Shown here: piece after piece, positions 18,716 to 46,823 of the stretch
Position numbering within the stretch: position 1 is the first letter of the stretch
Layout of the letters: each line of letters opens with the position of its first letter
DNA from: Acidobacteriota bacterium
Lineage (GTDB): Bacteria; Acidobacteriota; UBA6911
Direction of reading: 5' to 3'
Length of the DNA stretch: 64,000 nucleotides
NCBI GenBank assembly: GCA_963664705.1
Contig: OY761556.1
Location: 1,344,001-1,408,000, forward strand
The notes under the pieces: generated by a model
Database searches by the model: none
The model's input: only the letters and a program-made list of their open reading frames with translations
What the model was told of the DNA's origin: nothing
Translations under genes and position numbers: made by a program

Positions 18716-18995
18716 TTGGGACGTTTGGACGTTGGACGATGGGACGATGGGACGTTGGACGTTGGACGTTGGACGATGGGACGATGGGACGTTGGACGTT
18801 GGGACGTTGGACGTTGGACGATGGGACGTTGGACGTTGGACGTTGGACGTTGGGACGTTGGGACGATGGACGTTGGCCGATGGGACGATGGGACGATGGG
18901 ACGTTGGGACGTTGGACGTTGGACGATGTAGAAATGTGGACACCCACCCATTGGACGTTGGACGATGGGACGTTGGACGTTGGACGTTGGACGTT
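18716..18995 (+). repeat. ACGT-core 7-8-nt repeat cluster, G-rich arm (TTGGACG/TGGGACG)
   Basis: Dozens of degenerate tandem units. Confidence 0.95.
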
Positions 18996-19100
18996 TGGAA
19001 ATGTGGACACCCACCAAAAATATGGACACCCACGGTCTGCCACGGTCTGACCCACGGTCTGAGTTTTGTCGCTAAATCGGTGGGTGTCCAGAATTGACGA

Positions 19101-19886
19101 TTACACGTCCGCGAGGGTCAGGGGAACCGGCGCCTTTCCGTCAATATCCCGAAAACCGTAATCCCTGGCGACCTGGGCTGCGATCAGCACCCGTCCCGTT
19201 TTTTCCATGATCCCGGGATCCGAGGCGAGAGCAGCAACCGCCCGCCCCACGAACTGCGTCGATTCGGAGTTGCTGAGATCCAGCCATGCGGCCGATTGCA
19301 TAACCTTTTCGGTGCGCACAAGCCCCGGATACAACGACACCACCGCCACCCGATGGTCGCGCAGTTCGTGCGCCATGTCGGAGGTCATCTTGTCCGTGGC
19401 CGCCTTGGCCACCCCGTAGGCCGTATTGCCGATATATTTCTGCGCCGCCCAGAAGGAGATGTTGACGATCAGCCCACTCGCCTGGCGCACCATCCACGGA
19501 GCCGCCAGCTGGGCGGCCACATAGGCCGACCGCACCCCGGCCTGGAACATCGCATCCCACCGCCCGATCGGCTGCTGCCAGAACGGACGCGGCCAGGTGA
19601 ACTCGCCACCCTCCATCATGTTTTCATAGCCGCCCCAGGCATTGTTCACCAGAATGTCCAGCCGCCCGTGCCGGCCCGTGATCCGGTCAAACAGCGAGCG
19701 GACCTGCGCATCCTCCCGGTGATCGCAGCGAATGGCCGTCCCATGGCCATCGACGCTTCCGTCTTCCAGCGACCGGCCCGTGAAATAAACCGTGGCGCCC
19801 GCGCTGAAGAGCTCCTGCGCAATCCCTTTGCCCACGCCATAGCTGCCGCCCGTTACCAGGGCAACCTTTCCATCCAGACTCATCAT
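19101..19886 (-). CDS. SDR family oxidoreductase
   Basis: GKVALVTGGSYGVG, LVNNA, YGVAK; GGAG RBS before MMSLDG. Confidence 0.92.
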   Translation of the reverse strand: MMSLDGKVALVTGGSYGVGKGIAQELFSAGATVYFTGRSLEDGSVDGHGTAIRCDHREDAQVRSLFDRITGRHGRLDILVNNAWGGYENMMEGGEFTWPRPFWQQPIGRWDAMFQAGVRSAYVAAQLAAPWMVRQASGLIVNISFWAAQKYIGNTAYGVAKAATDKMTSDMAHELRDHRVAVVSLYPGLVRTEKVMQSAAWLDLSNSESTQFVGRAVAALASDPGIMEKTGRVLIAAQVARDYGFRDIDGKAPVPLTLADV

Positions 19887-19948
19887 GTCTCCAATCCTCG
19901 CCGGGCCTGTTGCTGCGCTCGCGTCGCAGCGCTCCCGGTCACGCGCTT

Positions 19949-20998
19949 TTATTTCAACTGCCGGGAAAAGAAGGTCAAGAGGTTGCTCTGAAAACGCGCC
20001 GCCACGCGATTCCCATGATCCCCTTCGTACTGTTCGAACACATGCGCAATTCCAAGGCTCGTGAGTTCCTTGTCCAGTTCGATATTCGTCGATTTGAGCG
20101 TGTCCTTGTCTCCGACATCCATTACGATGGCCCGGTATTGCTTCAGGTTCGGCACATATTGACTGACCATCGCCAGCGGCGAGTTGGCCACCCATTTGGC
20201 GGCAATCAGCGGCTGAACCTGGCCGTCCTTTGTCGGCATATCAAAATATTTGGGAGGATTCGCGGGATTCGGCGACCACGCCGCGGCCTGCGCCGACATC
20301 ACGTTGGCAAATGCGCCCGCCATGCGCTTTTCTTCCGCCGACGGTGCCTTGGCGCTGTTTCCCTGCGCCGGAGCCGGCGGCGGCAGCGCCGGGTTATTCA
20401 TTAGACAGCACGAACTCATCGCATATAAGGCCGAAAACACCTCCGGATGTTTCATCCCCACGCGAATAGTGCCGTACCCGCCCATGGAATGCCCCGACAG
20501 CCCGCGACTGTTGCGGTCGGCAACGGTCCGGTAATGGCTGTCGATATAGGCGACGAGATCGTGCGACAGGAAGCCTTCCCAATTCCCGGTAGTCGGCGAA
20601 TTGGAATACATGCTGCCACTGTAAATGGTGTACGCATCGGGCAGAACCAGGATCATCTCCCGCGCCCCCGCCGCAATGGCATTGTCGGCCATATCCGGGA
20701 GATTCAGCATCTTTACGTAGGCATCCACCCCCACCGAATAGCCGTGGAGAAAGTAGACCGTGGGGAAGCGCCGCTTGGCTTCCTTGGCATAGCTCGGCGG
20801 CAGGTAAACCACGACGTCCCGGTCCGGACTGTCTCCTTCCAGGTTGCCCTCCAGCGCAACTCCGTGCACCTTGATTCGCTCAATACTGCCTTTACCAACA
20901 GTGCCGGCTCCCGGCTGCGTCTGTGCCGCGAGAGCTCCGGCAAAAAGTACGAGGAACAACAGCCAGATGGGAAGGGAACACAAACGAAATAGTTTCAT
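19949..20998 (-). CDS. Secreted esterase (alpha/beta hydrolase, Fes/FrmB-like)
   Basis: Signal peptide; VYLPPSY, YFLHG, GHSMGG, DVGDKD, EGDH. Confidence 0.88.
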   Translation of the reverse strand: MKLFRLCSLPIWLLFLVLFAGALAAQTQPGAGTVGKGSIERIKVHGVALEGNLEGDSPDRDVVVYLPPSYAKEAKRRFPTVYFLHGYSVGVDAYVKMLNLPDMADNAIAAGAREMILVLPDAYTIYSGSMYSNSPTTGNWEGFLSHDLVAYIDSHYRTVADRNSRGLSGHSMGGYGTIRVGMKHPEVFSALYAMSSCCLMNNPALPPPAPAQGNSAKAPSAEEKRMAGAFANVMSAQAAAWSPNPANPPKYFDMPTKDGQVQPLIAAKWVANSPLAMVSQYVPNLKQYRAIVMDVGDKDTLKSTNIELDKELTSLGIAHVFEQYEGDHGNRVAARFQSNLLTFFSRQLK

Positions 20999-21177
20999 GA
21001 TCGACTCCATGCTTATCATTTTTGATTTTCATGACCGGGCGCGCCGACGCTCCCGATGACACTATATTCGTGTAAGTCGGGGCAAATTTACAGCATTTTG
21101 CTGGAGATGGAGACGGTTTGCCTTTACTATATCGCCATTGAAATAGTTCACCCCAACATTCCAAAGAGGGAAGAATA

Positions 21178-22054: not shown

Positions 22055-22168
22055 TTAGACGTTAGACGTTGAGACGTTAGACGTTGAGACGTTGGACGTT
22101 GGACGTTGAGACGTTGCACGTTGAACGTTCCAACGTTCCAACGTGTAACGTCCAACGTCCAACGTTCC
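22055..22168. repeat. ACGT-core repeat cluster, bipartite (G-rich arm then C-rich arm)
   Basis: ttagacg/ttggacg units switch to aacgtcc/aacgttcc. Confidence 0.93.
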
Positions 22169-23399: not shown

Positions 23400-23672
23400 A
23401 ACGTTGCACGTTGGACGTTTGGACGTTGGACGATGGGAACGTTGCACGTTGCGACGTTGGACGTTAGACGTTGGGACGTTGGACGATGGGACGGGAAACG
23501 TTGGACGTTGAACGTTGGGACGTTTGGACGTTGGACGTTTGGACGATGGGAACGTTGGATGTTGGAACGTTGAACGTTTGAAGAAACTGGATCAAGGCCG
23601 AATAATCCGTGTGGGCTCCCGTTCCCACGTCCCTCGTCCAACGTCTAACGTCCAACGTCTAACGTCTAACGT
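23400..23672. repeat. ACGT-core repeat cluster, bipartite with about 40-bp spacer
   Basis: G-rich 23400-23580, C-rich 23620-23672; fills the gap between convergent stops. Confidence 0.93.
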
Positions 23673-23673: not shown

Positions 23674-24705
23674 TTATTCCGCCTTGATCTGATCCCACAT
23701 TTTATTGTATTTCGCCGTATCCGCTCCAAGATCGTCAATCACCTCGCACTTCGCCTTCACCTGCGGTGCCAGGAATACGGCCGGGTTATTGCGCAGTTCC
23801 GCGTTCACCTTCGGATAGCTCGTCTGGTTCGGGCAGACATACGAAAGGAAATTCGTATTCTCCGCCGCCACTTCCGGATCGTGGATAAAATTAATAAACG
23901 CATGCGCGAGCTTCGCTTCTTTCGCGTTCTTCAGAATCACCAGGTCGTCGCACGAAATCGACGTCCCTTCCGCCGGGATCACAAACTGAATATCCGCATT
24001 CTCCTTTTGCACCTGCAAAAGATCGCCGCTGAAGCCGTGGACGAGCAGAAATTCTCCCGACGCGAGTCCGCCCTTGTATTGCTCCGATTCGAACTTCGCC
24101 AGGTTCTTTTTCCACGCGATGACCACGTCGCGCGCCGCGGCGAGCTCCCTGTCGTCCCGCGAATTCAGGCTGTACCCGAGCGATTTCAGCGCGGCACCCA
24201 GCGTCTCGCGCATGTCGTTGAGCATGGTCATCCGCCCTTTCAGCGCCGCCTGGTTGAACATCGTCCACGAAGGCGTGAAGTTCTGCACCTTCGACTTCAA
24301 ATAGGCGATCCCGGTATTGGTCAGCATGTACGGGACGCTGTGCTCCATCTTCGGATCCATCGCGATCTTCAGGTAGTCGGTGTCGACATGCTTCAGGTTC
24401 GGCAGCTGGCTGTGGTCCATCACCTGAAGATACCCCTGATTGTTCATTATTTTGACGAAATAGCTGCTGGGGGTCAGCAGATCGTACCCGGTCGCGCCCG
24501 CCTTGATCTTGGCGTACATCGATTCATTCGATTCAAAGGTGTCGATGACGATCTTGCAGCCGTGCTCTTTTTCAAAACGCTGCAGCAGCTCCGGCTTGAA
24601 ATAGTCCGCCCAGGTGTAGATCTTCAATTCAGGCGTCTGGCGCCGGCAGCCCATGGGCATACAGCACAGGATGAGGGACAGAAGAATCAAAGACCGGAAT
24701 TTCAT
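23674..24705 (-). CDS. potD: Spermidine/putrescine ABC transporter substrate-binding protein
   Basis: IYTWADY, FESNE, GYDLLTPS, PAEGT..SCD. Confidence 0.9.
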   Translation of the reverse strand: MKFRSLILLSLILCCMPMGCRRQTPELKIYTWADYFKPELLQRFEKEHGCKIVIDTFESNESMYAKIKAGATGYDLLTPSSYFVKIMNNQGYLQVMDHSQLPNLKHVDTDYLKIAMDPKMEHSVPYMLTNTGIAYLKSKVQNFTPSWTMFNQAALKGRMTMLNDMRETLGAALKSLGYSLNSRDDRELAAARDVVIAWKKNLAKFESEQYKGGLASGEFLLVHGFSGDLLQVQKENADIQFVIPAEGTSISCDDLVILKNAKEAKLAHAFINFIHDPEVAAENTNFLSYVCPNQTSYPKVNAELRNNPAVFLAPQVKAKCEVIDDLGADTAKYNKMWDQIKAE

Positions 24706-25472
24706 ACGACCTCCTTGGTTAAGCGCTGGCTGAAAAAGACCGTCAGAAAAGTGATCAGCAGCAGGATAGACGAGAGCGCGTTGATCAGCGGCGGCGACCC
24801 GTACTTGATCATGCTGTAAATGCGTATCGGCAGCGTGGTGGAGCCGGGTCCGGCCACGAAGAACGTGATGACGAAATCATCGATGGACAGCGTGAAGGCG
24901 AGCAGCCCTCCCGCGACAATCCCGGGCATCAGCAGCGGCAGCAGCACGCGCCACAGCGTCGTCCACCAGTCCGCGCCCAGGTCCTGTGCCGCTTCCACGA
25001 TCGCATAATCGAAATCCTGCAGCCGCCCCAGCACCACCATCGCCACGTAGCTGATGCAGAACGTCACGTGCGCCAGGAAAATGGTGAAGAGCCCCAGCTC
25101 GATGTGCAGCGCGACAAAGAACAGCAGCAGGCTGATCCCCATCAGGATTTCCGGCACCACCAGCGGCGTGTAGATCAGGGCGTAATGGAATTTCTGCAGC
25201 CGCGAGGAGTAGCGGTGCAGCGCAATCGCCGCGGTAGTCCCAAGGATCACGGACACAATGGTGGCGCTCATTGCAATCAGCAGACTGTTGGTCAGCGCGT
25301 GCCAGATTTCCCGCTCCCGGTACAGCTGCCGGTACCAGTGCAGCGACCAGCCCTGCCACGAACCGCCGAAGCGCGAGCCGTTGAACGAATACAGGACCAG
25401 CACGAAGATCGGCAGGTAGAAGAAAATCAGCAGCCCCCACGTGATGATCAGCGGAAAACGGCTCCGTTTCAT
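24702..25472 (-). CDS. potC: Spermidine/putrescine ABC permease
   Basis: FYLPIFVLVLYSFN, EAAQDLGA, AFTLSIDDF; ATGA overlaps with neighbours. Confidence 0.9.
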   Translation of the reverse strand: MKRSRFPLIITWGLLIFFYLPIFVLVLYSFNGSRFGGSWQGWSLHWYRQLYREREIWHALTNSLLIAMSATIVSVILGTTAAIALHRYSSRLQKFHYALIYTPLVVPEILMGISLLLFFVALHIELGLFTIFLAHVTFCISYVAMVVLGRLQDFDYAIVEAAQDLGADWWTTLWRVLLPLLMPGIVAGGLLAFTLSIDDFVITFFVAGPGSTTLPIRIYSMIKYGSPPLINALSSILLLITFLTVFFSQRLTKEVV

Positions 25473-26341
25473 GCGTCCTCCTCGATCAGCGGCGCGGCTT
25501 TTCCCTTTTTTTTCTGCAGCACCATGACCGCCAGCAGCGGCAGCAGCACCGCCAGGATCAACAGCGCCGACAGCCCGCTCGCGTGCGGCAGGTTGCGGTC
25601 GACGAAAACGCGCTGGGCGATCTTGTTCCCCAGCATCTCTCCGCCGGGCCCTCCCACGATATCCGGGATGACATACGAGCCGAGCGCCGGGATGAAGACC
25701 ACCAGGATGGACGTCCAGAGCCCGCGGCGAATTCCCGGCAGGAACACGTATATAAAGGACTGCCAGCGCCGCGCGCCCAGGTCCTGCGCCGCTTCCATCA
25801 ACCGGAAGTCGAATTTTTCCGCGGCCGCGTAAATCGGGAGGATGGCGAAAGGCAGAAATGTATACACCATCACCAGCCAGACCGCCCACGCGTTGTACAG
25901 CAGAGAGGCCTGCGGGCTCAGGAGGTGCAGGAACACCAGCGTCTTCTTGATCATCCCCTCCGGATGGAGCAGCGTTTTCCAGGCAAAGATGCGGATCAGG
26001 AAACTGGTCCAGAAAGGGATGATGACGAGCAGCAGCAGGATCTGCCGCCAGCGCTGGCTCGCGCGCGCCAGGCAGTAACCGGCGGGCGTTGCCAGGAAGA
26101 TGCAGGCCGCCGTCGTCAGCAGGCTGAGATAGATCGTGCGCCAGATGATGATCGGGTAGTTCGGGTTGCCCAGGCTGCGCAGCGTCGCCAGCGTCCAGCC
26201 TGCACCGATCCCGCCATACAGGTCGGTCGGTTTGAAGGTGATGGCAAAGACGATGAGCGTGGGGATCAGGAAGAGCAGCACCAGCCAGAGCAGCGACGGC
26301 GCCGTGATCAGCCATTCCTGGATCTTTTTGTTGCGAGCCAT
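25469..26341 (-). CDS. potB: Spermidine/putrescine ABC permease
   Basis: IPFWTSFLIR, YTFLPFAILPIY, EAAQDLGA, VFIPALG. Confidence 0.9.
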   Translation of the reverse strand: MARNKKIQEWLITAPSLLWLVLLFLIPTLIVFAITFKPTDLYGGIGAGWTLATLRSLGNPNYPIIIWRTIYLSLLTTAACIFLATPAGYCLARASQRWRQILLLLVIIPFWTSFLIRIFAWKTLLHPEGMIKKTLVFLHLLSPQASLLYNAWAVWLVMVYTFLPFAILPIYAAAEKFDFRLMEAAQDLGARRWQSFIYVFLPGIRRGLWTSILVVFIPALGSYVIPDIVGGPGGEMLGNKIAQRVFVDRNLPHASGLSALLILAVLLPLLAVMVLQKKKGKAAPLIEEDA

Positions 26342-26357
26342 ATTCATCACCTGCTGC

Positions 26358-26632
26358 GCATTGGAAGCGCCGGCGTCTCGACGAATTCCGCCTATTATTT
26401 GTTCTAAGCCCTGCGACGCGAGCGAAGCCATAGGCCCGGAGGGCCGAAAGAGCGTAGCCGGGGGTGAGCGCTTTTTGCGAACCCCCGGTTGGAGAGAAGC
26501 CTAGTAAGAGCCCTGGAGGGGCGAAAGATCGGCATTCTGCCGCCCCTTCAGGGCTTGTTACCAGCCTAATCCAATCCGGGGGTTCGCTTCGCTTCACCCC
26601 CGGCTACGTTCTGGCCGCCCCTCCGGGGCTAG
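26358..26632. repeat. Large palindromic REP/MITE-like element between potA and potB
   Basis: cgtagccgggggtga...ttcgcttcacccccggctacg arms; reverse-complement match to the unit of the 40.4-42.1 kb array. Confidence 0.85.
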
Positions 26633-27879: not shown

Positions 27880-28614
27880 CTAATCGAGATTAAAGGTGAG
27901 CGTCGCGCCGCCGTACAACGTCTGTCCGCGGGGAGTCACGCTGTTGTTCCGGATCGCTTGCCGCGCATTCTCGCTGAGCGCGGTCGAGTAGCCGAGCATC
28001 GGTTCGAACGTCACGCGCTTGCCCAGCGGCAGCGTCAGCGATGTCTGGAAATCGGCGCTGTAGAAATTCGAGAAATCCTTTCCCTCATCGTTCGTTCCCA
28101 TGTAGGAATTCTTCAGCACGTAGCCGGCATGCGCCTTGATGTTTAACGCTGCCTTCTTGCCGAGAGGGATGGCGGGCTCCAGCCCTACCTGTATGTAGGA
28201 TCCCTTCCCGTAATTTACGTCGCGATAAATGTAGAGGGAAGGTTTGAGCGCATCGTCGTGGCTCATGCCGGTGTAAATCTCGTCGCTGTCAGGCCCTTCG
28301 TTGACGCCGTAGTGGATATAGCCGATCTCGTAGCTGTATTTGTCCTTCTCCTTGGTGTACGAGGCGGTGATATCGGCTTCAGACCAGCGGCGCGGGTCGA
28401 ATTGATAATTCGCCCACAGGTTCAGGGCAAAGCCGTTATTGCCGACCGTCACGGAAGGCTGGAAAACTCCACCCTCGCTCAACCGCATGCCGCGCCACAT
28501 ATAATGAGAGAAAACCGCGCCGGAGACTTCGAATTGCTTGTCCTGGGCAGGAAGAACCTCGGGAATGATTGTAAGCAAGATCAGGAGCAGTCCGCAGAGC
28601 TTGAGATTTTTCAT
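27880..28614 (-). CDS. Putative outer-membrane beta-barrel (TorF-like porin family)
   Basis: Signal peptide; SHYMWRG..LS..GVFQP N-terminal motif; amphipathic strands. Confidence 0.65.
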   Translation of the reverse strand: MKNLKLCGLLLILLTIIPEVLPAQDKQFEVSGAVFSHYMWRGMRLSEGGVFQPSVTVGNNGFALNLWANYQFDPRRWSEADITASYTKEKDKYSYEIGYIHYGVNEGPDSDEIYTGMSHDDALKPSLYIYRDVNYGKGSYIQVGLEPAIPLGKKAALNIKAHAGYVLKNSYMGTNDEGKDFSNFYSADFQTSLTLPLGKRVTFEPMLGYSTALSENARQAIRNNSVTPRGQTLYGGATLTFNLD

Positions 28615-28699
28615 CGAAGACCTCGACGTGGGAAAAGGAACATTGATTCCATTAAAAGTGCGGAGTGTATGAGGTATGGGGGGGGATGTCAAGGGGGAG

Positions 28700-28877
28700 G
28701 TTGGACGTTGGGACGTTGGGACGTTGGACGTTGGGAACGTTGGACGTTGGGACGTTGGACGTCGGGACGTTGGACGTTGGGACGTTGGAACGTTGGGGAC
28801 GTTGGGAACGTTGGACGTTGGACGGTGGGGCGTTGGAGGTTGGACGTTGGGACGTTGGACGTTGGGACGTTGGACGC
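28700..28877 (+). repeat. ACGT-core repeat cluster, G-rich arm
   Basis: Tandem ttggacg/tgggacg flanked by ggggag-rich ends. Confidence 0.95.
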
Positions 28878-28890
28878 GGGAGGGGGGAGG

Positions 28891-29649
28891 TTAGCGACGG
28901 GAGGAGGGAGATTGCAAAGGCGGCCAGTCGTTCAGGCCGATGACGGCTTCGGCCGGGATTTCGTGCCCGCCATCAAAAGGGACAAACGTAACCTGCAGGC
29001 CTGCCTTTACCATGTCCATCCGCAGACGCTCCGCGAGGTCGTACGGCAGGATGTTGTCGCCGCGCCCGTGGGCCATGAAGACCGGAAGCCCTTTGCGCCG
29101 CGCCATGCCGGCCCGCCAAGCTGCTTCATTGACTGGCGTCCCCGAAAAGATAATCAGCGCCGACAGAGGTTCGTCCGACATAAAAGCGATCTGGCAGGCG
29201 ACCATGGCTCCCTGCGAAAAGCCGCCCAGGAGGAACGGGTGTTTGGCCGAATTCCCTTCGGCCGACATCACGGCGCGCACCTCCTGCGCGGCCGATTCCA
29301 GTCCGCCGGGCGCGTCGAGCGACAGGTCGATGCCGTTCTGGTGGATGCGCAGGTGCGCCGCGAGATCCAGGTCCCACCACGCAAGCCCTCCCGTGGACCC
29401 GTCGGTGCGCAGCGCCGGCACCGTGGCCTCCGGAAACAGGAAGCGCCCGTTGCCGGGGAGCGCGATACTTTCCGAAAAGGGAAGCCAGTGCTCGGCGGAA
29501 GAGCCATAGCCGTGCAGCAGCAGAAGCGTCGGCGGCCCCTCTCCCCCGCGCTGAATCACGCGCAGCGGCATTTTGGGCGAAAGCATCAGCACCACTGCCG
29601 TCACCGCCACCGCAACCAAAATAACAATCAGTATGTATTTCCCGCGCAT
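28891..29649 (-). CDS. Phospholipase/carboxylesterase family hydrolase
   Basis: LLLHGYG, LGGFSQGA, AHGRGD, FDGGHEI. Confidence 0.9.
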   Translation of the reverse strand: MRGKYILIVILVAVAVTAVVLMLSPKMPLRVIQRGGEGPPTLLLLHGYGSSAEHWLPFSESIALPGNGRFLFPEATVPALRTDGSTGGLAWWDLDLAAHLRIHQNGIDLSLDAPGGLESAAQEVRAVMSAEGNSAKHPFLLGGFSQGAMVACQIAFMSDEPLSALIIFSGTPVNEAAWRAGMARRKGLPVFMAHGRGDNILPYDLAERLRMDMVKAGLQVTFVPFDGGHEIPAEAVIGLNDWPPLQSPSSRR

Positions 29650-29653
29650 AGCT

Positions 29654-29772
29654 CACGTTCCACGTTCCCACGTTCCACGTTCCAACGTTCAACGTTCAAC
29701 GTTCAAACGTCCAACGTCCAACGTCCCAACGTCCCAACGTCCAACGTCCAACGTCCAACGTCCAACGTCCAA
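29654..29772 (-). repeat. ACGT-core repeat cluster, C-rich arm
   Basis: Tandem aacgtcc/cacgttcc. Confidence 0.95.
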
Positions 29773-29779
29773 CCTCTTT

Positions 29780-31681: not shown

Positions 31682-31732
31682 AATGCCTCCCGGGTTTGAT
31701 GAAATGAGGCCCCACTTTACCGCGATAACGTG

Positions 31733-31878
31733 AAACGTTGCAACGTTAGACGTTAGACGTTGGGACGTTGGACGAGAAAACCGTTGGACGAAAAAACGTT
31801 GGACGTTGAACGTTGGGACGTTGGACGATTGGACGTTGGACGAGAAAACGTTGGACGATCGGACGTTGGACGATGGGA
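31733..31878 (+). repeat. ACGT-core repeat cluster, G-rich arm
   Basis: Tandem ttggacg variants. Confidence 0.93.
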
Positions 31879-31886
31879 GGGGGAGG

Positions 31887-32255
31887 CTATGGGTGGGATT
31901 GAAGGTATTTGATGAAATTTGAGAGCTGGGCAGCGAGCTTTCTGGCTTTGTCCATGACTACATCGAATTTTTCGGAATTAATGTAGGCTTGATCCAAAGC
32001 AACATACAATTGCGATTGCACCTCTCCCGTAGAACCCTTCGCAATTCGTAAATATCGGATGAAGATTCCCTTGGGACCGGATGCATATCCCTCCGCTATA
32101 TTACTCATCGCACTTACCGCCGCTCGACGGATTTGATCCCTTAAGCCGAAATCCCGGGAGAAGCCTCCCTGGTTGGATAGATCATAAATCAGCTTTGTGA
32201 GTTCGCGGGCGACTTGCCAGGCGTTGATGCTTTCGAAGGATATGATTTTTGACAT
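31887..32255 (-). CDS. Four helix bundle protein (23S rRNA IVP / bAvd-like family)
   Basis: FESINAWQ, DFGLRDQIRRAAVSAMSNIAEG, YLRIAKGSTGEVQSQL. Confidence 0.93.
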   Translation of the reverse strand: MSKIISFESINAWQVARELTKLIYDLSNQGGFSRDFGLRDQIRRAAVSAMSNIAEGYASGPKGIFIRYLRIAKGSTGEVQSQLYVALDQAYINSEKFDVVMDKARKLAAQLSNFIKYLQSHP

Positions 32256-32262
32256 AAAAGGA

Positions 32263-32504
32263 TGTTGGACGTTAGGAACGTTAGACGTTGGACGTTAGGA
32301 ACGTTAGACGTTGGACGTTTGAACGTTGCACGTTTGAACGTTGCACGTTGAAATGAATGTTTCTGCCGGACATAAATTATTTCACTAAAAAAGTAAAACC
32401 TCCAACGTCTAACGTCCCAACGTCCAACGGTTTTATCGTCCAACGTCTAACGTCCCAACGTCCCAACGTCCAACGTCTAACGTTCCCCGTCCAACGTTCC
32501 ACGT
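32263..32504. repeat. ACGT-core repeat cluster, bipartite with about 50-bp AT-rich spacer
   Basis: G-rich 32263-32350, C-rich 32400-32504, between divergent genes. Confidence 0.93.
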
Positions 32505-32527
32505 TTTTATGTTATGCTGCAGACCTA

Positions 32528-33517
32528 ATGAAACGAACCTGGTCGCTTGTCATCAGCATCGCGCTGACCGCCGTGATCGGCTATGTGCTGTACCGCAGCG
32601 TGCCCGACTGGGGGCAGGCTGTCTCGATCATGATTTCGGCGCGCCCGCAATGGTTCCTGGCCGGAATCTGCTTTGTCGGGCTCCACATGGTCATGCGCTC
32701 GCTGCGCTGGAGCCTGCTGCTCCGCCCGGTCAAGAGCGGCATCCCGCTGAAGAGCTTTCTTTCGGTGACCATCATCAAATACGTCATCAACGTCATTCCG
32801 CCGCGCGTCGGCGAAATTGCCGGATCGGTGCTGCTGGCGCGCAAGGAGAAGATCCCCTCCTCCTCGGCCATCGCCAGCTCTCTGTTCGAACGGGTGCTCG
32901 ACGCGCTGGCCGTCCTGTCGATTTTCGGCTTTTACCTTTTCTTCTGCGCCGGATGGTATGCGCCGACTTCGAAGCGCGGGCGCGAGATTTTCGACACGAT
33001 CCGGACTTCGACGATGGTGGGGATGGCGGTGTTTGCCGTGCTGCTGATTCTTCTGCTGCTGTTCCTGCACAGCGAGCGCTGGCACAACCGTGTTCCGGGG
33101 ATCCTCCGGAAGCACGTCCTCTCGTTTGCCGACGGCCTGCGCTCGATCCAGAGCTGGCCGGCCGCGATCAAAGTCGGAGCGCTTTCGATCCTGATCTGGC
33201 TGTCGATCAGCGCGCAGCTCTGGTGCTTTACGCGCGCTTATCTCGATGATTTTCCGTTCACCGGCGCGCTCTTCATCATGGCAATCACGGTCGTCGGCGT
33301 GGCGATTCCTACGCCGGGCGGCGTGGGCGGATTCCAGTTTTTCATGGCGCTCGGGCTGATCCATTTCTTCCGCGCCTTTATCCCGGGCGTTGATCCGGAA
33401 TCGCAGGCGGGCGGCGTCAGCAACGGCGTTTACCTCATGTCGATGGGGCCGGTGATTTTACTCGGCCTTGTTCTTCTGCATCGCGAAGGAATTTCTCTGT
33501 CCGAATTAAAACGTTGA
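32528..33517 (+). CDS. Lysylphosphatidylglycerol synthase TM / UPF0104 flippase-like membrane protein
   Basis: RSLRW, NVIPPRVGE, ERVLD, PTPGGVGGF. Confidence 0.85.
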   Translation: MKRTWSLVISIALTAVIGYVLYRSVPDWGQAVSIMISARPQWFLAGICFVGLHMVMRSLRWSLLLRPVKSGIPLKSFLSVTIIKYVINVIPPRVGEIAGSVLLARKEKIPSSSAIASSLFERVLDALAVLSIFGFYLFFCAGWYAPTSKRGREIFDTIRTSTMVGMAVFAVLLILLLLFLHSERWHNRVPGILRKHVLSFADGLRSIQSWPAAIKVGALSILIWLSISAQLWCFTRAYLDDFPFTGALFIMAITVVGVAIPTPGGVGGFQFFMALGLIHFFRAFIPGVDPESQAGGVSNGVYLMSMGPVILLGLVLLHREGISLSELKR

Positions 33518-33657
33518 ACGTTGGACGTTGGGACGTTGGACGTTGGGACGTTGAAACGTTGCACGTTACACGTTGAACGTTATAACGTTCCCTCGTCCAA
33601 CGTCTCAACGTCTAACGTCCAACGTTCCAACGTTCCAACGTTCCAACGTCCCAACGT
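33510..33657. repeat. ACGT-core repeat cluster, bipartite; overlaps the upstream stop codon
   Basis: aaacgttga supplies the stop, followed by G-rich then C-rich units. Confidence 0.92.
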
Positions 33658-33764
33658 TGATCGTTCCGCGTTTCACGATTGCTATTACTAAATACCAATT
33701 TTATGTTTGGAACAGGTGGTTATCCTCCACCCGGAAGAATGCTATATTTTATGACAGGGTAGGG

Positions 33765-34528: not shown

Positions 34529-35011
34529 ATGCCCGGACCGTATCGCATTATCCTGACCGACAATCATGCTCCCCTCAGGAGCGCGGTAAAATCGCTCCTG
34601 GAAGAGTCGGGGGAGTACCTTGTCGTCGGAGAGGCGGGGGATGGAGCCCAGCTTCTGAAGCTGCTGCAGGACGGAGTCGAAGCGGATGCGCTGGTGCTGG
34701 ATCTGATGATGCCGGTCATGACCGGCGTCGAGGCCGCCGGCGAAATCCGGCGGCTGGGGTTCCCGATCGCGATCCTGGTGCTCACGATGCACCAGGAGAC
34801 CGAACTGCTGTGCCGCGCCTTCAAAGTCGGAGTCAATGGTTATGCCCTGAAGGACGGGATTGCCAGGGATCTGCTGCCGGGGCTGCGCGCCGTGATCGAA
34901 GGGAAGCTGTTTCTGTCGCCCGAAATCAAGGGCGAGTTGCCGGCGACGTGTACCGTTAAGAAGGTGGAAGGCAGTCTAATAGCTCTAGGTTTCGCCCACT
35001 GTACGGCGTGA
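34529..35011 (+). CDS. NarL-type receiver-only response regulator (no HTH)
   Basis: LTDNH, VLDLMMP, VLTMH, GYALK; ends without a LuxR HTH. Confidence 0.85.
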   Translation: MPGPYRIILTDNHAPLRSAVKSLLEESGEYLVVGEAGDGAQLLKLLQDGVEADALVLDLMMPVMTGVEAAGEIRRLGFPIAILVLTMHQETELLCRAFKVGVNGYALKDGIARDLLPGLRAVIEGKLFLSPEIKGELPATCTVKKVEGSLIALGFAHCTA

Positions 35012-35014
35012 ATG

Positions 35015-35099
35015 AAACGTTAGACGTTGGACGATAAAACGTTGGACGTTGAAACGTTGGAACGTTGGACGTTGAACGTTGGGACGTTGGACGTTGGAA
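35015..35099 (+). repeat. ACGT-core repeat cluster, G-rich arm
   Basis: Tandem units between convergent stops. Confidence 0.92.
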
Positions 35100-35107
35100 A
35101 GAGCGTA

Positions 35108-35356
35108 TCACGCCACTTCGGTTTTGGGCGCGCTCTTTATCAGAATACTGGGCTGATGATTCTGGTCCGGAACGGGCAAATTCATTTCCCTTAATGTATC
35201 CACGAATTCCTGCATATCGGACTTTGCCGTGCGAAGGCACTCTTCCAATGATCGGCCCGCACCCGTAAAACCGCCAAGGTCCGGCGAGTAAAAAGAGAAA
35301 AACTCAGGATCGCCGGTGGCCTCGATTACCAGAGAATACGGCAATTCGATTATCAT
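35108..35356 (-). CDS. hicB: HicB-family antitoxin
   Basis: YSLVIE...YSPDLGGFTGAGRSLEECL..A; ATGA overlap with hicA. Confidence 0.85.
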   Translation of the reverse strand: MIIELPYSLVIEATGDPEFFSFYSPDLGGFTGAGRSLEECLRTAKSDMQEFVDTLREMNLPVPDQNHQPSILIKSAPKTEVA

Positions 35357-35550
35357 CTTCCCCCTCCACTCAATCCGGCTGCCCTTAAGATAGAATAGCA
35401 AGTCCCTGCCGGTACTTCCTTCGTGCCGTGGAAATCCACGCGGATCAGTTTCATATGGCCGGTTTTCCCATAGAAACGGATTGAACCACGTTCCTTAACC
35501 AGGTGGAATCCATTTCGTTCCAACAGCCGAACAAGCTCACTGAACTTCAT
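35353..35550 (-). CDS. hicA: HicA-family toxin
   Basis: MKFSELVRLLERNGF....GS.....H..KEVPAGT..SIL..AGL. Confidence 0.85.
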   Translation of the reverse strand: MKFSELVRLLERNGFHLVKERGSIRFYGKTGHMKLIRVDFHGTKEVPAGTCYSILRAAGLSGGGR

Positions 35551-35644
35551 TATATCAACCCGTTCTAATGACGCAAAAGAACAAACGGAAGATCGCTGTT
35601 GTGAATGTTTCGGCGGCGGATTTTTCATTTCAGCAAATTTTCTT

Positions 35645-35748
35645 TGGACGTTGAACCGTTGGACGCTGGGACGTTGAACGTTGGACCTTGGACGTTGGAC
35701 GATGAACGTTGGACGTTGGACGATAAAACGTTGGACGTTGAGACGTTG
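35645..35748 (+). repeat. ACGT-core repeat cluster, G-rich arm
   Basis: Tandem ttggacg variants. Confidence 0.92.
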
Positions 35749-35808
35749 ATTTAGAATTAACCAACAATCTATAAAATGCCGATATAAAGATTTCTACAGG
35801 AGATATTT

Positions 35809-36225
35809 ATGTCGGAAACCGTAGCCTTTCTGAAAGCCTTGACTCCGGAGTCAAAGACCAGCCTGGGTGCGCCCCAGGTTCAGATTCATCGCTATCCCTA
35901 TCGCGTTGGCCGAGAAAGCCGCGAAGCGGGAGCTGCTGCGTTCCCGAATTCCCGCAGGCGCCAGGATTCCAGCCCCAACAACGAGCTTTACCTGCTGGAT
36001 GATGGCAAGATGCTGAATATCTCCCGGGAGCATTTCCAGATCGAACAGCGCCACGGAAACTTCTACATCGTGGACCGCAACAGCATGTGCGGAACGATTG
36101 TCGAAGGAGAGATTATCGGGCAGGGCCGGAATGGCGGCGCCAGGCAGCTCAACAATGGCGACGTCATAATCGTCGGCACCTCCGAATCCAAACAAGTCCT
36201 CAAATTCGTCACTTTGACGCCGTAA
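35809..36225 (+). CDS. FHA-domain protein
   Basis: RVGR, ISREH, DRNSMCGT, LNNGDVI. Confidence 0.88.
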   Translation: MSETVAFLKALTPESKTSLGAPQVQIHRYPYRVGRESREAGAAAFPNSRRRQDSSPNNELYLLDDGKMLNISREHFQIEQRHGNFYIVDRNSMCGTIVEGEIIGQGRNGGARQLNNGDVIIVGTSESKQVLKFVTLTP

Positions 36226-36304
36226 CGTCCAACGTCCAAACGTCCAACGTTTCAACGTTCAACGTTCAACGTTCAACGTTCCAACGTTCAACGTTCCAAC
36301 GTCC
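36224..36304 (-). repeat. ACGT-core repeat cluster, C-rich arm
   Basis: aacgtcc/aacgttc units starting at the FHA stop codon. Confidence 0.92.
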
Positions 36305-36517
36305 GATGTCGGTTCACCTAACACCTTCTGTAAACGATATTTACAAAACATTCCCATGGGATTTATTTACATTAGATAGACAATTCTTTTCATTTTTCTA
36401 ACTCCACGCCGAAGGCTACTTACAGCCCCCAATTGCAAATTCCTTTCCCGCGCGATCCCGCTGGTCATTCTTTTGCCTATATCCAGGGCGAACCACACAT
36501 GGAGGTGTAATGTGCCT

Positions 36518-39252: not shown

Positions 39253-39261
39253 CCCTCAACA

Positions 39262-39314
39262 TCCCCCGTCCCACATCCCAACGTCCAACGTCCCAACGTC
39301 CAACGTCCAACGTT
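39262..39314 (-). repeat. ACGT-core repeat cluster, C-rich arm
   Basis: ccaacgt units in the gmd-fcl gap. Confidence 0.88.
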
Positions 39315-40367: not shown

Positions 40368-42150
40368 CGGGAGCGCCGGTGTCCCTCCGAATGCTGCCTG
40401 CTATTTGCCCGAGGAGGCTGGGAGCGCGATGCATCTCAGCCCCACGTTATTTGCCCAAGGAATCTGGAAGCGCAATGCATCTCAGCCCCATGTTATTTGC
40501 CCAAGAAATCTGGAAGCGCGATGCATCCAGCCCCATGTTATTTGCCCAAGAAATCTGGAAGCGCAATGCATCTCCGCCCCATGCTATTTGCCCAAGAAAT
40601 CTGGGAGCGCGATGCATCCAGCCCCAGCGGGGCGGTCAGAACGTAGCCGGGGGTGAAGCGAAGCGAACCCCCGGATTGGATTAGGTTGGCAACAAGCCCT
40701 GAAAGGGGCGGCAGAATGCCGATGTTTCGCCCTTGCCGGGGCTCTTTCTCGTGCACATCGCTACCGGGGGTTCGCTTCGCTTCACCCCCGGCTACGATCT
40801 TTCGGCCCTCCGGGCCTTTGCTTCACCCTCGTCGCAGGGCTTAGAACCAATGGTAGGTCACATTGGCCGGAAGCCCAATGCCGCATGTTATTTGCCCAAG
40901 GAGGCTGGAAGCGCGATGCATCTCCGCCCCATGCTATTTGCCCAAGAAATCTGGGAGCGCGATGCATCCAGCCCCAGCGGGGCGGTCAGAACGTAGCCGG
41001 GGGTGAAGCGAAGCGAACCCCCGGATTGGATTAGGTTGGCAACAAGCCCTGAAAGGGGCGGCAGAATGCCGATGTTTCGCCCCTGCCGGGGCTCTTTCTC
41101 GTGCACATCGCTACCGGGGGTTCGCTTCGCTTCACCCCCGGCTACGTTCTTTCGGCCCTCCGGGCCTTTGCTTCACCCTCGTCGCAGGGCTTAGAACCAA
41201 TGGTAGGTCACATTGGCCGGAAGCCCAATGCCGCATGTTATTTGCCCAAGGAATCTGGAAGCGTGATGCATCTCAGCCCCACGTTATTTGCCCAAGGAGG
41301 CTGGAAGCGCAATGCATCTCCGCCCCATGCTATTTGCCCAAGAAATCTGGGAGCGCGATGCATCCAGCCCCAGCGGGGCGGTCAGAACGTAGCCGGGGGT
41401 GAAGCGAAGCGAACCCCCGGATTGGATTAGGTTGGCAACAAGCCCTGAAAGGGGCGGCAGAATGCCGATGTTTCGCCCTTGCCGGGGCTCTTTCTCGTGC
41501 ACATCGCTACCGGGGGTTCGCTTCGCTTCACCCCCGGCTACGATCTTTCGGCCCTCCGGGCCTTTGCTTCACCCTCGTCGCAGGGCTTAGAACCAATGGT
41601 AGGTCACATTGGCCGGAAGCCCAATGCCGCATGTTATTTGCCCAAGGAATCTGGAAGCGTGATGCATCTCAGCCCCACGTTATTTGCCCAAGGAGGCTGG
41701 AAGCGCAATGCATCCAGCCCCAGCGGGGCGGTCAGAAAGTAGCCGGGGGTGAAGCGAAGCGAACCCCCGGATTGGATTAGGTTGGCAACAAGCCCTGAAA
41801 GGGGCGGCAGAATGCCGATGTTTCGCCCTTGCCGGGGCTCTTTCTCGTGCACATCTCTACCGGGGGTTCGCTTCGCTTCACCCCCGGCTACGATCTTTCG
41901 GCCCTCCGGGCCTTTGCTTCACCCTCGTCGCAGGGCTTAGAACCAATGGTAGGTCACATTGGCCGGAAGCCCAATGCCGCATGTTATTTGCCCAAGGAAT
42001 CTGGAAGCGTGATGCATCTCAGCCCCAGCGGGGCGGTCAGAACGTAGCCGGGGGTGAAGCGAAGCGAACCCCCGGTAGAGACAAGTGGGAGCAAGAGCCC
42101 TGGCAGGGGCGAAAGATCGGCATTCTGCCGCTGGGACGCCGGAGCTCCCA
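40368..42150. repeat. Tandem array of 5 palindromic units separated by variable copies of a 46-bp subrepeat
   Basis: gtgaagcgaagcgaacc at 40653, 41003, 41399, 41749 and 42054 (spacings 350, 396, 350, 305); subrepeat ttatttgcccaaggaatctggaagcgtgatgcatctcagccccacg. Confidence 0.95.
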
Positions 42151-42573: not shown

Positions 42574-43788
42574 TTAAAATTTGTTAGACGTTGGACGTTG
42601 GGACGTTGGACGTTCCGCGTTCCACGTTCCGGCAATCCAACCGAGTACCATCGCATTGGCCGGGATATACAAATTAAAATCGACGAAACTATGCAACAGG
42701 ATGGCGGCCAGCGCCCCGATGCATGCGATATGCCCGGCCCGTATCGCCTGCCGGAATGCACTTCCGATCAAAACCGCCACAAGCAAAAATCCAATGATCC
42801 CCAATTCAATCATCGCCTGCACATAATCGTTATGTGCGTAATCCACGGTGTGTCCGGGAAGGATGTCCTTGATCTTGTAAAAGGCTGATTCAAAGCCTCC
42901 GAGGCCGCAGCCGAACGCGGCATATTTTTTGATCAGGGGCGGGGCCTGCTGCAGAAACAGCAGCCGTCCTCCCAGCGTGGACACCTGTTCTTCCGATGCT
43001 TCGGAGAATCGTTTGAAGAACGGATCGGGCGGCAGGTAAAGAAAAAGAAACAGCGCGCCCGCAAGGATCGGCACCGGCGCCACCCACTTAATCCAACGTT
43101 GAACGTTCAACGTTCCACGTTTAACGTTCAACGACAGTATTCCCATCAAACACAGCACACAGAGGGTCGTCAGGAACCCGCCGCGCGAGTAGGAGCAGAC
43201 AATTCCAGCAAAAATAATGCCGGCCGGAATCCAAAGCCACTTGTCGCGAAACGCGCCGACGACGGCGAACGGGAGAGACATTTCGAGCAGCCCGGCGAAG
43301 TGGTTGCGGTTGACGTAGGTGCCGTGCGCGCCGGTTTCCGCGTTCATGGCCATGATGCCGAGAGCCGCTTCGATGGCTGCGACGATGATGATCGGGAGTG
43401 CCGCCCAGCGGCTTTTCATCCCGCGGATCGTGAAGTAGACGGCAATATAGGCCAGGATGCGCAGCAGATGCTCGAACGTCGCTGCCGGCTTAATGCTGGT
43501 GACGAAAAACTGGGCGAGCGCGTAGCAGGGAAGGAGAAGCATAAACGTTGGACGTTTCAACGTTGGACGTTGGACGTTGGGACGTTGGGACGATGGGACG
43601 TGGGACGTTGGACGTTGGGACGTTGGACGTTGGAACGTTGGAACGTTGAACATCCAGTAGGTTGCGCAAACGATGCCGAATCCCAGCAGACACCAGTGCC
43701 ACTGCGCCGTCTGCACCCCTCCGTCGCAATACACGGCGTACGCCAGCACCACTCCTAACCCAGCAAGCGTCAGCGTGTGTCCGCGCAT
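42574..43788 (-). CDS. O-antigen ligase/Wzy_C-family membrane protein with in-frame repeat insertions
   Basis: GTYVNRNHFAGLLEM, SYSRGG, FGCGLGGF, YAHNDY, HSFVDFNL. Confidence 0.88.
   Translation of the reverse strand: MRGHTLTLAGLGVVLAYAVYCDGGVQTAQWHWCLLGFGIVCATYWMFNVPTFQRPTSQRPTSHVPSSQRPNVQRPTLKRPTFMLLLPCYALAQFFVTSIKPAATFEHLLRILAYIAVYFTIRGMKSRWAALPIIIVAAIEAALGIMAMNAETGAHGTYVNRNHFAGLLEMSLPFAVVGAFRDKWLWIPAGIIFAGIVCSYSRGGFLTTLCVLCLMGILSLNVKRGTLNVQRWIKWVAPVPILAGALFLFLYLPPDPFFKRFSEASEEQVSTLGGRLLFLQQAPPLIKKYAAFGCGLGGFESAFYKIKDILPGHTVDYAHNDYVQAMIELGIIGFLLVAVLIGSAFRQAIRAGHIACIGALAAILLHSFVDFNLYIPANAMVLGWIAGTWNAERPTSQRPTSNKF
42582..42630. repeat. ACGT-core bipartite cluster encoding the ligase C-terminus
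   Basis: Translates as WNAERPTSQRPTSN. Confidence 0.88.
43093..43134. repeat. ACGT-core cluster inside the ligase CDS
   Basis: Translates as LNVKRGTLNVQRW. Confidence 0.85.
43543..43650 (+). repeat. ACGT-core G-rich arm inside the ligase CDS
   Basis: Translates as NVPTFQRPTSQRPTSHVPSSQRPNVQRPTLKRPTF. Confidence 0.92.
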
Positions 43789-45497: not shown

Positions 45498-45507
45498 TAA
45501 TTCCGTT

Positions 45508-45548
45508 GCACGTCGGACGGCGAACGTTGGACGTTGGACGTTGGCCGT
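45508..45548 (+). repeat. ACGT-core repeat cluster, G-rich arm
   Basis: aacgttggacgttggacgttgg. Confidence 0.85.
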
Positions 45549-45607
45549 TGCCCGTTTTATTATCTTTTTAATCGAAATAATCTCGGTCCCGATGAAACAT
45601 TCAGATC

Positions 45608-46129
45608 ATGAGGAATTCGAACATTCTTGCCGTGCCGACTGATTCAATCGAGCGTCGCATTTACCTGATCCGTGGCATGAAAGTTATCATTGACTCGGAT
45701 TTAGCGGAATTGTATCAAGTGCTTACAAAAAACCTCAATCTTGCCGTCCGAAGAAACCTGGATCGCTTTCCGGAAGATTTTATGTTTCGCCTCACGAAAG
45801 ATGAGGCTGTTTGTTTGAGGTTGCAATCTGCAACCTCAAACACATCCCGCGGAGGCCGCCGATATCTTCCCTATGCCTTCACAGAGCACGGTGTAGCGAT
45901 GCTATCTGCAGTTCTTAAAAGTGAGCGCGCTGTGCAGATGAGCATCTTCATCATTCGTGCTTTTGTCAAAATCAGAGAGGTTCTTGCTACCCACCATGAT
46001 TTGGCGAAGAAAATAGATGAACTGGAGCGTGAGCAGAAGGACCAGGGACGTCAACTTGCGGCAGTGTACTCCGTTGTAAAAAGGCTGATCGATACGCCGT
46101 CAACCCGCAAAAACCCCATCGGTTTTTAA
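45608..46129 (+). CDS. ORF6N-domain DNA-binding protein
   Basis: IYLIRGMKV..DSDLAELY, RRNLDRFPEDFMF, PYAFTEHGVAMLS, C-terminal PIGF. Confidence 0.93.
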   Translation: MRNSNILAVPTDSIERRIYLIRGMKVIIDSDLAELYQVLTKNLNLAVRRNLDRFPEDFMFRLTKDEAVCLRLQSATSNTSRGGRRYLPYAFTEHGVAMLSAVLKSERAVQMSIFIIRAFVKIREVLATHHDLAKKIDELEREQKDQGRQLAAVYSVVKRLIDTPSTRKNPIGF

Positions 46130-46134
46130 AACAC

Positions 46135-46236
46135 TCAACGTCCCACGTCCCACGTCCAACGTGCTTTTCAACGTCCAACGTCTCAACGTCCAACGGGTTT
46201 TCCAACGTCCAACGTGCTTTTCAACGTCCAACGTTC
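46135..46236 (-). repeat. ACGT-core repeat cluster, C-rich arm
   Basis: caacgtc units, including a duplicated aacgtgcttttcaacgtcc. Confidence 0.92.
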
Positions 46237-46773
46237 CTATCCTACCGTCACCCAACATCCTGCAACGTTAATTTCGACCTCGGTCTTTTTTTTCGTCGGC
46301 GACGTCAATCTCAGCAAGCTTTCATATTTATGAAGTACGTTGAGGTACGGCATGCAATCCCGTCTTGAGACCAGGTAATCGTAGGATTCCTTTGCGGGCC
46401 GGCCGAAGACTTTCATCAGGTAGGCGGCGGCGACCGTTGGGCTGCGATTAACGCCGGCAGTGCAATGGAGGTAGACCTTGGTCCAATTGAGTGCGAGCAC
46501 GGCTTCTAATTTATCGACGAGATGAGGGAGTTGATGGGCGAGTAAATCTTCGTTGAAATCGGGCACCGGCAGGCGCAGGAGTTCGATATCTACGGCATCG
46601 AGGGCTTTTTCCAGTTTTTTGAGATTGATCCGGCAGCTCTTGATGTCATGGTCGCTTTGCAGGTTGATGACGGTGGTGACTCCCAGCCGCCAGAGTTGTT
46701 TTGCATCTTTATGGTCGATGAATCGTCCGACCCAAAGCTGTCCCTGAATAATCTCGTTATAATCAAATAGCAT
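46237..46773 (-). CDS. Dual-specificity protein phosphatase family
   Basis: VYLHCTAGVNRS (CX5R), PVPDF, AAYLM. Confidence 0.9.
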   Translation of the reverse strand: MLFDYNEIIQGQLWVGRFIDHKDAKQLWRLGVTTVINLQSDHDIKSCRINLKKLEKALDAVDIELLRLPVPDFNEDLLAHQLPHLVDKLEAVLALNWTKVYLHCTAGVNRSPTVAAAYLMKVFGRPAKESYDYLVSRRDCMPYLNVLHKYESLLRLTSPTKKKTEVEINVAGCWVTVG

Positions 46774-46789
46774 TTCTCATCTCAATCTC

Positions 46790-46823
46790 TCGTTCAACGT
46801 CCACGTCCAACGTTCAACGTTCC
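46790..46823 (-). repeat. ACGT-core repeat cluster, C-rich arm (last one in the window)
   Basis: cgttcaacgtccacgtccaacgttcaacgttcc. Confidence 0.85.

What the first reader, a model, noticed from the sequence alone, without database searches (positions are those of the whole stretch)
18716..46823. Polar ACGT-heptamer repeat arms that bracket single genes like nested parentheses
Seen: about 19 clusters of a degenerate 7-8-nt unit, either a G-rich arm (TTGGACG, read as an opening bracket) or its reverse complement (CGTCCAA, a closing bracket). All six clearly bipartite clusters (22055, 23400, 32263, 33510, 38293, 42582) run G-arm then C-arm, whether the flanking genes are tandem, convergent or divergent. 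Single arms pair across genes in the same order: (28700 esterase 29654), (35645 FHA 36224), (45508 ORF6N 46135), and (31733 four-helix bundle 32400). Higher-order nesting is possible, e.g. (35015 hicAB (FHA)...39262) and (43543 (ORF6N) DSP 46790). Several enclosed genes belong to typically sporadic families. Inference: this is a hairpin element whose loop accepts gene cargo, acting as an insertion/recombination scaffold or as RNA stems that loop genes out of transcripts. No recombinase or transposase for it is visible in the window.
Basis: partly seen in the sequence, partly recalled or inferred. Interest (0 to 1): 0.85.

Follow-up and report, generated by a model that had tools for sequence, protein, structure and literature searches.

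The report
Polar heptamer hairpins bracketing single genes
Runs of a 7/8-base repeat sit at most gene junctions of one chromosome region, always as a G-rich arm followed by its mirror-image C-rich arm, sometimes with one gene between them; they belong to the poorly understood bacterial heptamer repeats that accompany a small four-helix-bundle gene, and likely mark sites where DNA was broken and rejoined rather than the ends of a cargo-carrying mobile element.

Summary
The repeats and their polarity are real. There are 19 clusters in the window, and 43 of the genome's 51 lie in one 165-kb region. All 12 hairpins run G-arm then C-arm, and single arms under 1 kb apart pair G-then-C 8 times and C-then-G never (p about 1e-4). 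Higher-order nesting is not supported (p 0.57).

This is one of five main heptamer families in the genome. Each of the five four-helix-bundle (PF05635) genes sits in arms of a different family, and 40 of 54 such genes in the genus have inverted arms. The scan noted this gene-plus-arms class before on other DNA (381 notes), and polar heptamer pairs are published for Xanthomonas.

The cargo-element reading is weak. Homologues of the bracketed ORF6N (0 of 14) and esterase (0 of 2) lack arms. Arms also lie in frame inside an O-antigen ligase gene, and in a gmd-fcl junction that lacks them in four relatives. The same unit runs C-then-G in other phyla (19 versus 3).

Best reading: arrays laid down in place, whose centres likely act as break-and-join points. 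No reads were examined.

The parts
18719..18995 (+). long single G-type arm (about 37 units), unpaired in the window
22058..22165 (.). G-then-C hairpin between ADC-family and EAL genes
   Evidence: z -10
23401..23672 (.). G-then-C hairpin (45-nt spacer) between convergent EAL and potD; no ACGT array at the potD end in three relatives printed
28695..28873 (+). G arm; begins a few bases outward of the -35-like box of the porin gene, where sequence shared with relatives ends
28891..29649 (-). carboxylesterase gene (PF02230) bracketed by G and C arms; found in 2 of 29 relatives, without arms
29654..29773 (+). C arm closing the esterase bracket
31728..31878 (+). G arm at the 3' end of the four-helix-bundle gene
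31887..32255 (-). four-helix-bundle gene (PF05635, TIGR02436; relative of Xanthomonas XCC0516, PDB 2GSC), the companion gene of this repeat family
32260..32504 (.). G-then-C hairpin (47-nt spacer) upstream of the four-helix gene
33510..33658 (.). G-then-C hairpin between a flippase-like gene and a response regulator
   Evidence: z -11
35017..35099 (+). single G arm beside hicB/hicA (35108-35628, -)
35644..35748 (+). G arm opening the FHA bracket
35809..36225 (+). FHA-domain gene between G and C arms
36224..36304 (+). C arm closing the FHA bracket, starting in the stop codon
38294..38352 (.). G-then-C hairpin at the 3' end of fcl; a hairpin sits at the same place in relative G006
39259..39313 (+). 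single C arm filling the gmd-fcl junction; absent from that junction in 4 of 4 relatives printed
42583..42631 (.). short G-then-C hairpin encoding the C-terminal tail of the O-antigen ligase
43094..43133 (.). short mixed array in frame inside the O-antigen ligase (residues 227-240)
43545..43648 (+). G arm in frame inside the O-antigen ligase (residues 55-90), in place of sequence seen in homologues
45504..45556 (+). G arm overlapping the position of the ABC transporter's N-terminal codons in relatives; G043 and G006 have an arm-only hairpin just upstream of this gene
45608..46129 (+). ORF6N-domain gene between G and C arms; 0 of 14 homologous loci with full flanks have arms
46136..46234 (+). 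C arm at the 3' end of the phosphatase gene; G043 and G006 have an arm-only hairpin here
46791..46822 (+). short single C arm upstream of the phosphatase gene

Best explanation
These are polar, mirror-image arrays of a 7/8-base repeat, one of five main heptamer families in this genome, each of which brackets its own four-helix-bundle (PF05635) gene; the arrays were likely laid down in place at gene junctions and in tolerant protein loops, and their centres likely serve as break-and-join points where a gene is gained or a block is rearranged, leaving G-arm/gene/C-arm brackets. Shown: the arrays, their polarity in this lineage, the one-family-per-gene pattern in this genome, the match between protein clade and repeat unit in the genus, arms in conserved junctions and coding loops, and arms at points where gene order differs from relatives. 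Inferred: that the four-helix protein recognises its own repeat and helps seed new arms, that slippage then lengthens them, and that breakage at hairpin centres with end joining makes the brackets. The enzyme that first writes an arm is not identified.
For: Five PF05635 genes, each inside arms of a different unit, matching the five most abundant of six families counted. 40 of 54 PF05635 loci with full flanks in the genus have inverted arms, and similar units group by protein clade in a quick tree. Polarity: 12 of 12 curated hairpins, 8 versus 0 brackets; 24 G-then-C versus 2 C-then-G among 26 bipartite clusters in seven loci of G043 and G006. Polarity follows the lineage and its PF05635 gene, not the unit: elsewhere the same unit pairs C-then-G in 19 loci versus 3, and three C-gene-G loci carry PF05635 proteins of a different clade. 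In-place origin: single arm in the conserved gmd-fcl junction and in-frame arrays in the O-antigen ligase. Junction role: ABC-side and phosphatase-side hairpins in G043 and G006 enclose a block of several genes where this genome has G-ORF6N-C, and genes of that block lie elsewhere and inverted here; the 28695 arm starts where shared sequence with relatives ends; one left arm of the GGAG family is fused to a right arm of the ACGT family at genome 1462996-1463496. A Ku gene is present.
Against: No breakage, excision or inversion was observed; no reads were examined. Relatives are only about 65-80% identical in DNA, so no clean filled/empty allele pair exists. Several relatives rich in ACGT arrays (G006, G043, G021, G004) showed no PF05635 gene with ACGT arms, though they are incomplete assemblies. 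A sixth family (GATTGAC type, 12 arrays) has no matching PF05635 gene here. Arms are inherited together with the gene, so clade-unit concordance does not prove recognition. Polarity is mixed in G021 and G022. In Xanthomonas such repeats lie at more conserved, not less conserved, positions (PMC4692102). Why this family is confined to one region while the others are dispersed is unexplained.
Confidence: 0.5

Rival explanations
1. Simple repeats grown by polymerase slippage and kept because the two arms form RNA stems that stabilise, separate or process messages; brackets are stems that loop one gene out, and nothing moves or recombines at them.
For: Strong predicted stems; arrays start at or in stop codons; local higher-order periods of 15, 22 and 23 nt indicate slippage; the junction upstream of the ABC gene holds arrays of three different families in five genomes, like the repeated class replacements in the Nostoc intron stem (PMC4476775).
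Against: Either arm order would pair, so stem selection alone does not explain fixed polarity; hairpins occur between tandem, convergent and divergent genes; unpaired arms of up to 57 units and a non-complementary hybrid pair exist; no terminator-like call falls on the arrays in 28600-36500.
Confidence: 0.25
2. One reading: a mobile hairpin element whose loop takes cargo, inserts as a unit and nests inside earlier copies.
For: Eight one-gene-sized brackets, several with sporadic genes (ORF6N, BrnT pair, S1/P1 nuclease); the PF05635 cassette itself behaves as such a unit across the genus.
Against: Homologues of ORF6N (0 of 14) and esterase (0 of 2) have no arms; partner arms are not closer copies than random pairs (p 0.13-0.34); inner ends share no fixed terminus; nesting p=0.57; arms lie inside coding sequence; the one IS200-type transposase of the genome carries a different repeat.
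Confidence: 0.12
3. Telomerase-like healing: repeat units are added to free 3' ends at a double-strand break, so each rejoined break reads G-then-C, a captured fragment ends up bracketed, and one-sided extension leaves a single arm.
For: Explains polarity, single arms, replacement of native sequence in the ligase, independent partner arms and the hybrid pair. PF05635 resembles the RT accessory protein Avd (PMC10053308). Bacterial RTs that write tandem repeats exist (PMC12632851, search listing only).
Against: The only RT in the genome lies over 4 Mb away; no template RNA was identified; cross-family hybrids are few (3 left-right versus 0 after dropping a confounded pair) and the wider test was confounded.
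Confidence: 0.1
4. An integron-like array: the unit fits the attC core consensus (GTTRRRY and its inverse, recalled), so brackets would be cassettes.
For: The commonest unit matches that consensus, and G-gene-C is the order around an integrated cassette gene.
Against: No integron integrase over cut-off (best 87.6 bits against 265); between-gene hairpins run G-then-C, the reverse of attC order; genes face both ways; the other four families do not fit the consensus.
Confidence: 0.02

Closest known systems
Convergent GGGAATC heptamer repeat pairs of Xanthomonas (Rehm et al. 2015, PMC4692102; sections 10 and 16 and passages read)
   Same: Degenerate heptamer arrays, about 90% intergenic, close to gene ends, 70-75 inverted pairs described as convergent, great length variation, function unknown.
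   Different: Those are genome-wide and G-quadruplex forming; here a 7/8-nt ACGT unit is confined to one region and brackets whole genes. The passages read make no link to a four-helix-bundle gene.
ORF-bearing intervening sequences of 23S rRNA carrying PF05635 (family and PMC10053308 passages; RNase III excision recalled)
   Same: Same protein family enclosed by inverted arms able to form a stem.
   Different: Here the gene lies among protein-coding genes, not in rRNA (no rRNA match), and gene-less arms far outnumber gene-bearing ones.
Nostoc tRNA-Leu intron P6b heptamer stems (PMC4476775, passages read), cyanobacterial STRR repeats (recalled), Beggiatoaceae TAACTGA repeats (PMC4679880, abstract and passages read)
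   Same: Stems or runs built of degenerate heptamers; one repeat class replaces another at the same site; some arrays read in frame at protein ends.
   Different: No gene bracketing, fixed genome-wide arm order or companion protein in the passages read.
REP/REPIN elements with RAYT transposases (recalled)
   Same: Several repeat families per genome, each tied to one paralogue of a small gene, with gene-less inverted doublets dispersed.
   Different: The companion is a four-helix bundle with no known catalytic activity; arms are variable tandem arrays, not fixed palindromes.

Membership tests
Bacterial heptamer repeat arrays with polar inverted pairs (STRR / Xanthomonas type) | tandem degenerate units of about 7 nt | tested here: met
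   spacing peaks at 7 (298) and 8 (194)
Bacterial heptamer repeat arrays with polar inverted pairs (STRR / Xanthomonas type) | mostly intergenic, near gene ends, a minority in frame | tested here: met
Bacterial heptamer repeat arrays with polar inverted pairs (STRR / Xanthomonas type) | inverted pairs in one fixed order | tested here: met
Bacterial heptamer repeat arrays with polar inverted pairs (STRR / Xanthomonas type) | dispersed over the whole chromosome | tested here: not met
   43 of 51 in 165 kb; the other families are dispersed
PF05635 gene cassette with inverted heptamer arms | PF05635 gene above cut-off | tested here: met
   105 bits against 33.8
PF05635 gene cassette with inverted heptamer arms | outer arms inverted about the gene | tested here: met
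   an extra inner arm is present, a layout also seen in L238
23S rRNA intervening sequence | located inside a 23S rRNA gene | tested here: not met
   no rRNA match in the window
23S rRNA intervening sequence | excised from RNA by RNase III | not testable with these tools
   no RNA data examined
MITE / REPIN / cargo transposon | fixed termini and copy-to-copy identity | tested here: not met
MITE / REPIN / cargo transposon | cognate transposase flanked by the same repeat | tested here: not met
   the IS200-type gene has a different repeat; the IS110 gene 1.8 kb from the nearest arm has no adjacent arm
MITE / REPIN / cargo transposon | target-site duplication and precise empty allele | tested here: inconclusive
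   relatives too distant; no systematic duplication search was run
Integron cassette array | integron integrase | tested here: not met
Integron cassette array | attC order (inverse core, then core) between genes | tested here: not met
   hairpins run the other way; consensus recalled

The most novel reading that the evidence does not exclude
Each PF05635 paralogue is the specificity factor of a repeat-writing system: it dictates one heptamer and its direction, the units are added to broken chromosome ends in a telomerase-like way, and rejoining leaves G-then-C scars that capture stray genes. Bacterial heptamer repeats would then be the footprints of an unrecognised repair and gene-capture pathway.
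Probability: 0.1. Interest if true: 0.92.

Novelty: new variant of a known kind. Interest (0 to 1): 0.5.

Why it matters
Bacterial heptamer repeats have no accepted origin or function (stated in PMC4692102 and PMC4679880), and PF05635 is a widespread protein of unknown function. This single-contig genome has five paralogues with five matching repeat families, and other lineages use the same unit in the opposite order with a different paralogue clade. That makes a cross-binding experiment straightforward. If hairpin centres are joining points, the repeats help explain how surface-polysaccharide regions are reshuffled and pick up small sporadic genes.

Tried and rejected
Higher-order nesting: not above shuffles (p 0.58, 0.57).

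Partner arms as mirror copies: no excess similarity.

A motif thought to be shared by the inner ends of the esterase and four-helix brackets: the exact 12-mer occurs only at the four-helix site and one unrelated place.

Cross-family hybrid test in 137 genomes: 26 matches against 1, but uninterpretable, because the hits are single arms whose unit drifts between two similar families.

Integron, RT and IS200-type partners: none linked.

Promoter and terminator scan of 28600-36500: no excess over shuffles. Rfam: nothing on the arrays.

The careful tree search did not finish; only quick trees were used. Rows under 85 aa were left out, and one search used 30 chosen genus rows plus 5 from other lineages.

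Literature searches found no paper linking PF05635 to heptamer arms; subscription papers and supplements were not seen.
Full report
Observation. The window holds 19 clusters of a degenerate 7/8-nt unit with an ACGT core. In the 6.9-Mb single-contig genome, ACGT spacings peak at 7 and 8 nt, 51 clusters pass a simple threshold, and 43 of them lie between 1.31 and 1.48 Mb. A looser chain search gave 0 hits per Mb in three Markov simulations. An automatic caller found 8 G-then-C and 0 C-then-G arm pairs under 150 nt apart. It mislabelled a few short clusters, so I curated 44 clusters by eye: 12 hairpins, all G-then-C, 18 single G arms and 14 single C arms. Adjacent single arms under 1 kb apart run G-then-C 8 times and C-then-G never (p=0.00012). 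The eight brackets hold the esterase, FHA and ORF6N genes in the window; outside it they hold a BrnT pair, an S1/P1 nuclease, a short-chain dehydrogenase, a small ORF of no family, and one stretch with no clear gene. Once these pairs are removed, the remaining order is not more nested than shuffles (p=0.57).

What family it belongs to. The genome has five PF05635 four-helix-bundle genes. Each lies inside arms of a different repeat unit, and those five units are the most abundant of six families counted; the sixth has 12 arrays and no matching gene. Across all families, same-family arm pairs under 150 nt apart run left-then-right 19 times and right-then-left never. In the genus, 40 of 54 PF05635 loci with full flanks have inverted arms, and similar units group by protein clade in a quick tree. 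The window's protein falls near the only other ACGT-armed one and the CGTT/AGTT-armed group. Arms are inherited with the gene, so this concordance does not prove recognition. Several relatives rich in ACGT arrays showed no ACGT-armed PF05635 gene. Earlier notes of this scan describe the same gene-plus-arms class on other DNA (381 findings) and in-frame arrays; I treated them as leads and tested the class claims in this genus.

Polarity. It holds in two relatives (24 versus 2 bipartite clusters in seven loci) but is mixed in two others. A scan of public genomes returned 120 loci with the same unit from many phyla, a partial sample. Of 108 with enough flank, 19 had the C arm on the left, 3 on the right and 86 neither or both. 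Three C-gene-G loci carry PF05635 proteins of a different clade. The order therefore belongs to the lineage and its companion gene, not to the unit itself. One distant locus (L238) repeats the window's layout of G arm, gene, G-C hairpin.

Cargo or not. Against a cargo element: 0 of 14 ORF6N homologue loci with full flanks (15 fetched) and 0 of 2 esterase homologue loci have arms. Partner arms are no more alike than random pairs, and inner ends share no terminus. A single arm fills the gmd-fcl junction, which lacks it in 4 of 4 relatives printed. Two arrays lie in frame inside an intact O-antigen ligase, at residues 55-90 and 227-240, and a third forms its tail. For a junction role: G043 and G006 have arm-only hairpins both upstream of the ABC gene and downstream of the phosphatase gene, with several genes between them, where this genome has G-ORF6N-C; genes of that block lie elsewhere here, some inverted. 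The polyamine transporter operon and porin have no ACGT arrays in relatives, and the 28695 arm begins where shared sequence ends. One left arm of another family is fused directly to a long ACGT right arm. Relatives are only about 65-80% identical, so several events may separate them, and no clean empty allele was found.

Mechanism. I favour arrays seeded in place by a process tied to the four-helix gene and lengthened by slippage, with hairpin centres acting as break-and-join points (0.5). Any break at a centre followed by joining keeps the left-right order and gives G-gene-C brackets, single arms and hybrids. A Ku gene is present. The seeding enzyme is unknown: the one RT lies over 4 Mb away, the IS200-type transposase has its own repeat, and there is no integron integrase. 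Rivals are selected RNA stems (0.25; strong folds, but no account of polarity), a cargo element (0.12), telomerase-like end healing (0.1) and an integron (0.02). No DNA or RNA reads were examined, so excision, inversion and transcript ends remain untested.

Literature. Rehm et al. 2015 (PMC4692102; sections 10 and 16 and passages read) report 70-75 convergent GGGAATC pairs in Xanthomonas, function unknown, at relatively conserved positions. MacGregor 2015 (PMC4679880; abstract and passages) and the Nostoc intron study (PMC4476775; passages) describe related heptamers. PMC10053308 (passages) notes the resemblance of PF05635 to Avd. PMC12632851 was seen only as a search listing. STRR, REPIN/RAYT, attC and RNase III details are recalled. 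Seven searches found no paper linking PF05635 to heptamer arms.

Verdict. Real and strongly polar, and a variant of a known but unexplained repeat class that this scan has met many times. New here are the dense regional cluster, the statistically supported one-gene brackets around genes other than PF05635, five paralogues with five families in one genome, and arm order switching with protein clade. Interest 0.5.

Noticed in passing
window 40400-42030: A second repeat system: 46-nt units within 350-396-nt repeats, four Acido-Lenti-1 Rfam matches, and shared sequence with the flanks of the genome's single IS200-type transposase at genome 1439920; looks like a REP/RAYT-type array.
   Followed up: partly
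window 18930-19090: A third short motif (TGGACACCCA core, 79 copies genome-wide, often clustered) interrupts and follows the long G arm.
   Followed up: partly
genome 1462996-1463496 (L005 about 14996-15496): Left arm of the GGAG family fused to a 57-unit right arm of the ACGT family: a non-complementary hybrid.
   Followed up: partly
L064 14445, L066 16525, L076 7686, L077 6719; window 45504: The junction upstream of the same ABC transporter gene carries arrays of three different heptamer families in five genomes.
   Followed up: partly
window 47365-52049: Cluster with an HprK-related kinase, radical SAM protein, nucleotidyltransferase and signal peptidase-like gene inside the polysaccharide locus, with several radical SAM copies in relatives; possibly peptide-modifying.
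   Followed up: no
window 44-9241 and L002 8374-19246: Defence-island-like stretch: tyrosine integrase, D5 N-terminal-like protein, type I restriction genes, AbiJ-like and helicase/DUF2290 genes, lying between the two leftmost C arms and the main cluster.
   Followed up: no
window 24702-26597: The two polyamine ABC permease genes are one fused 631-aa ORF; relatives align along most of it.
   Followed up: no
L003 627-2999: Polysaccharide flippase domain fused to a CheR-like methyltransferase domain in one 790-aa ORF.
   Followed up: no
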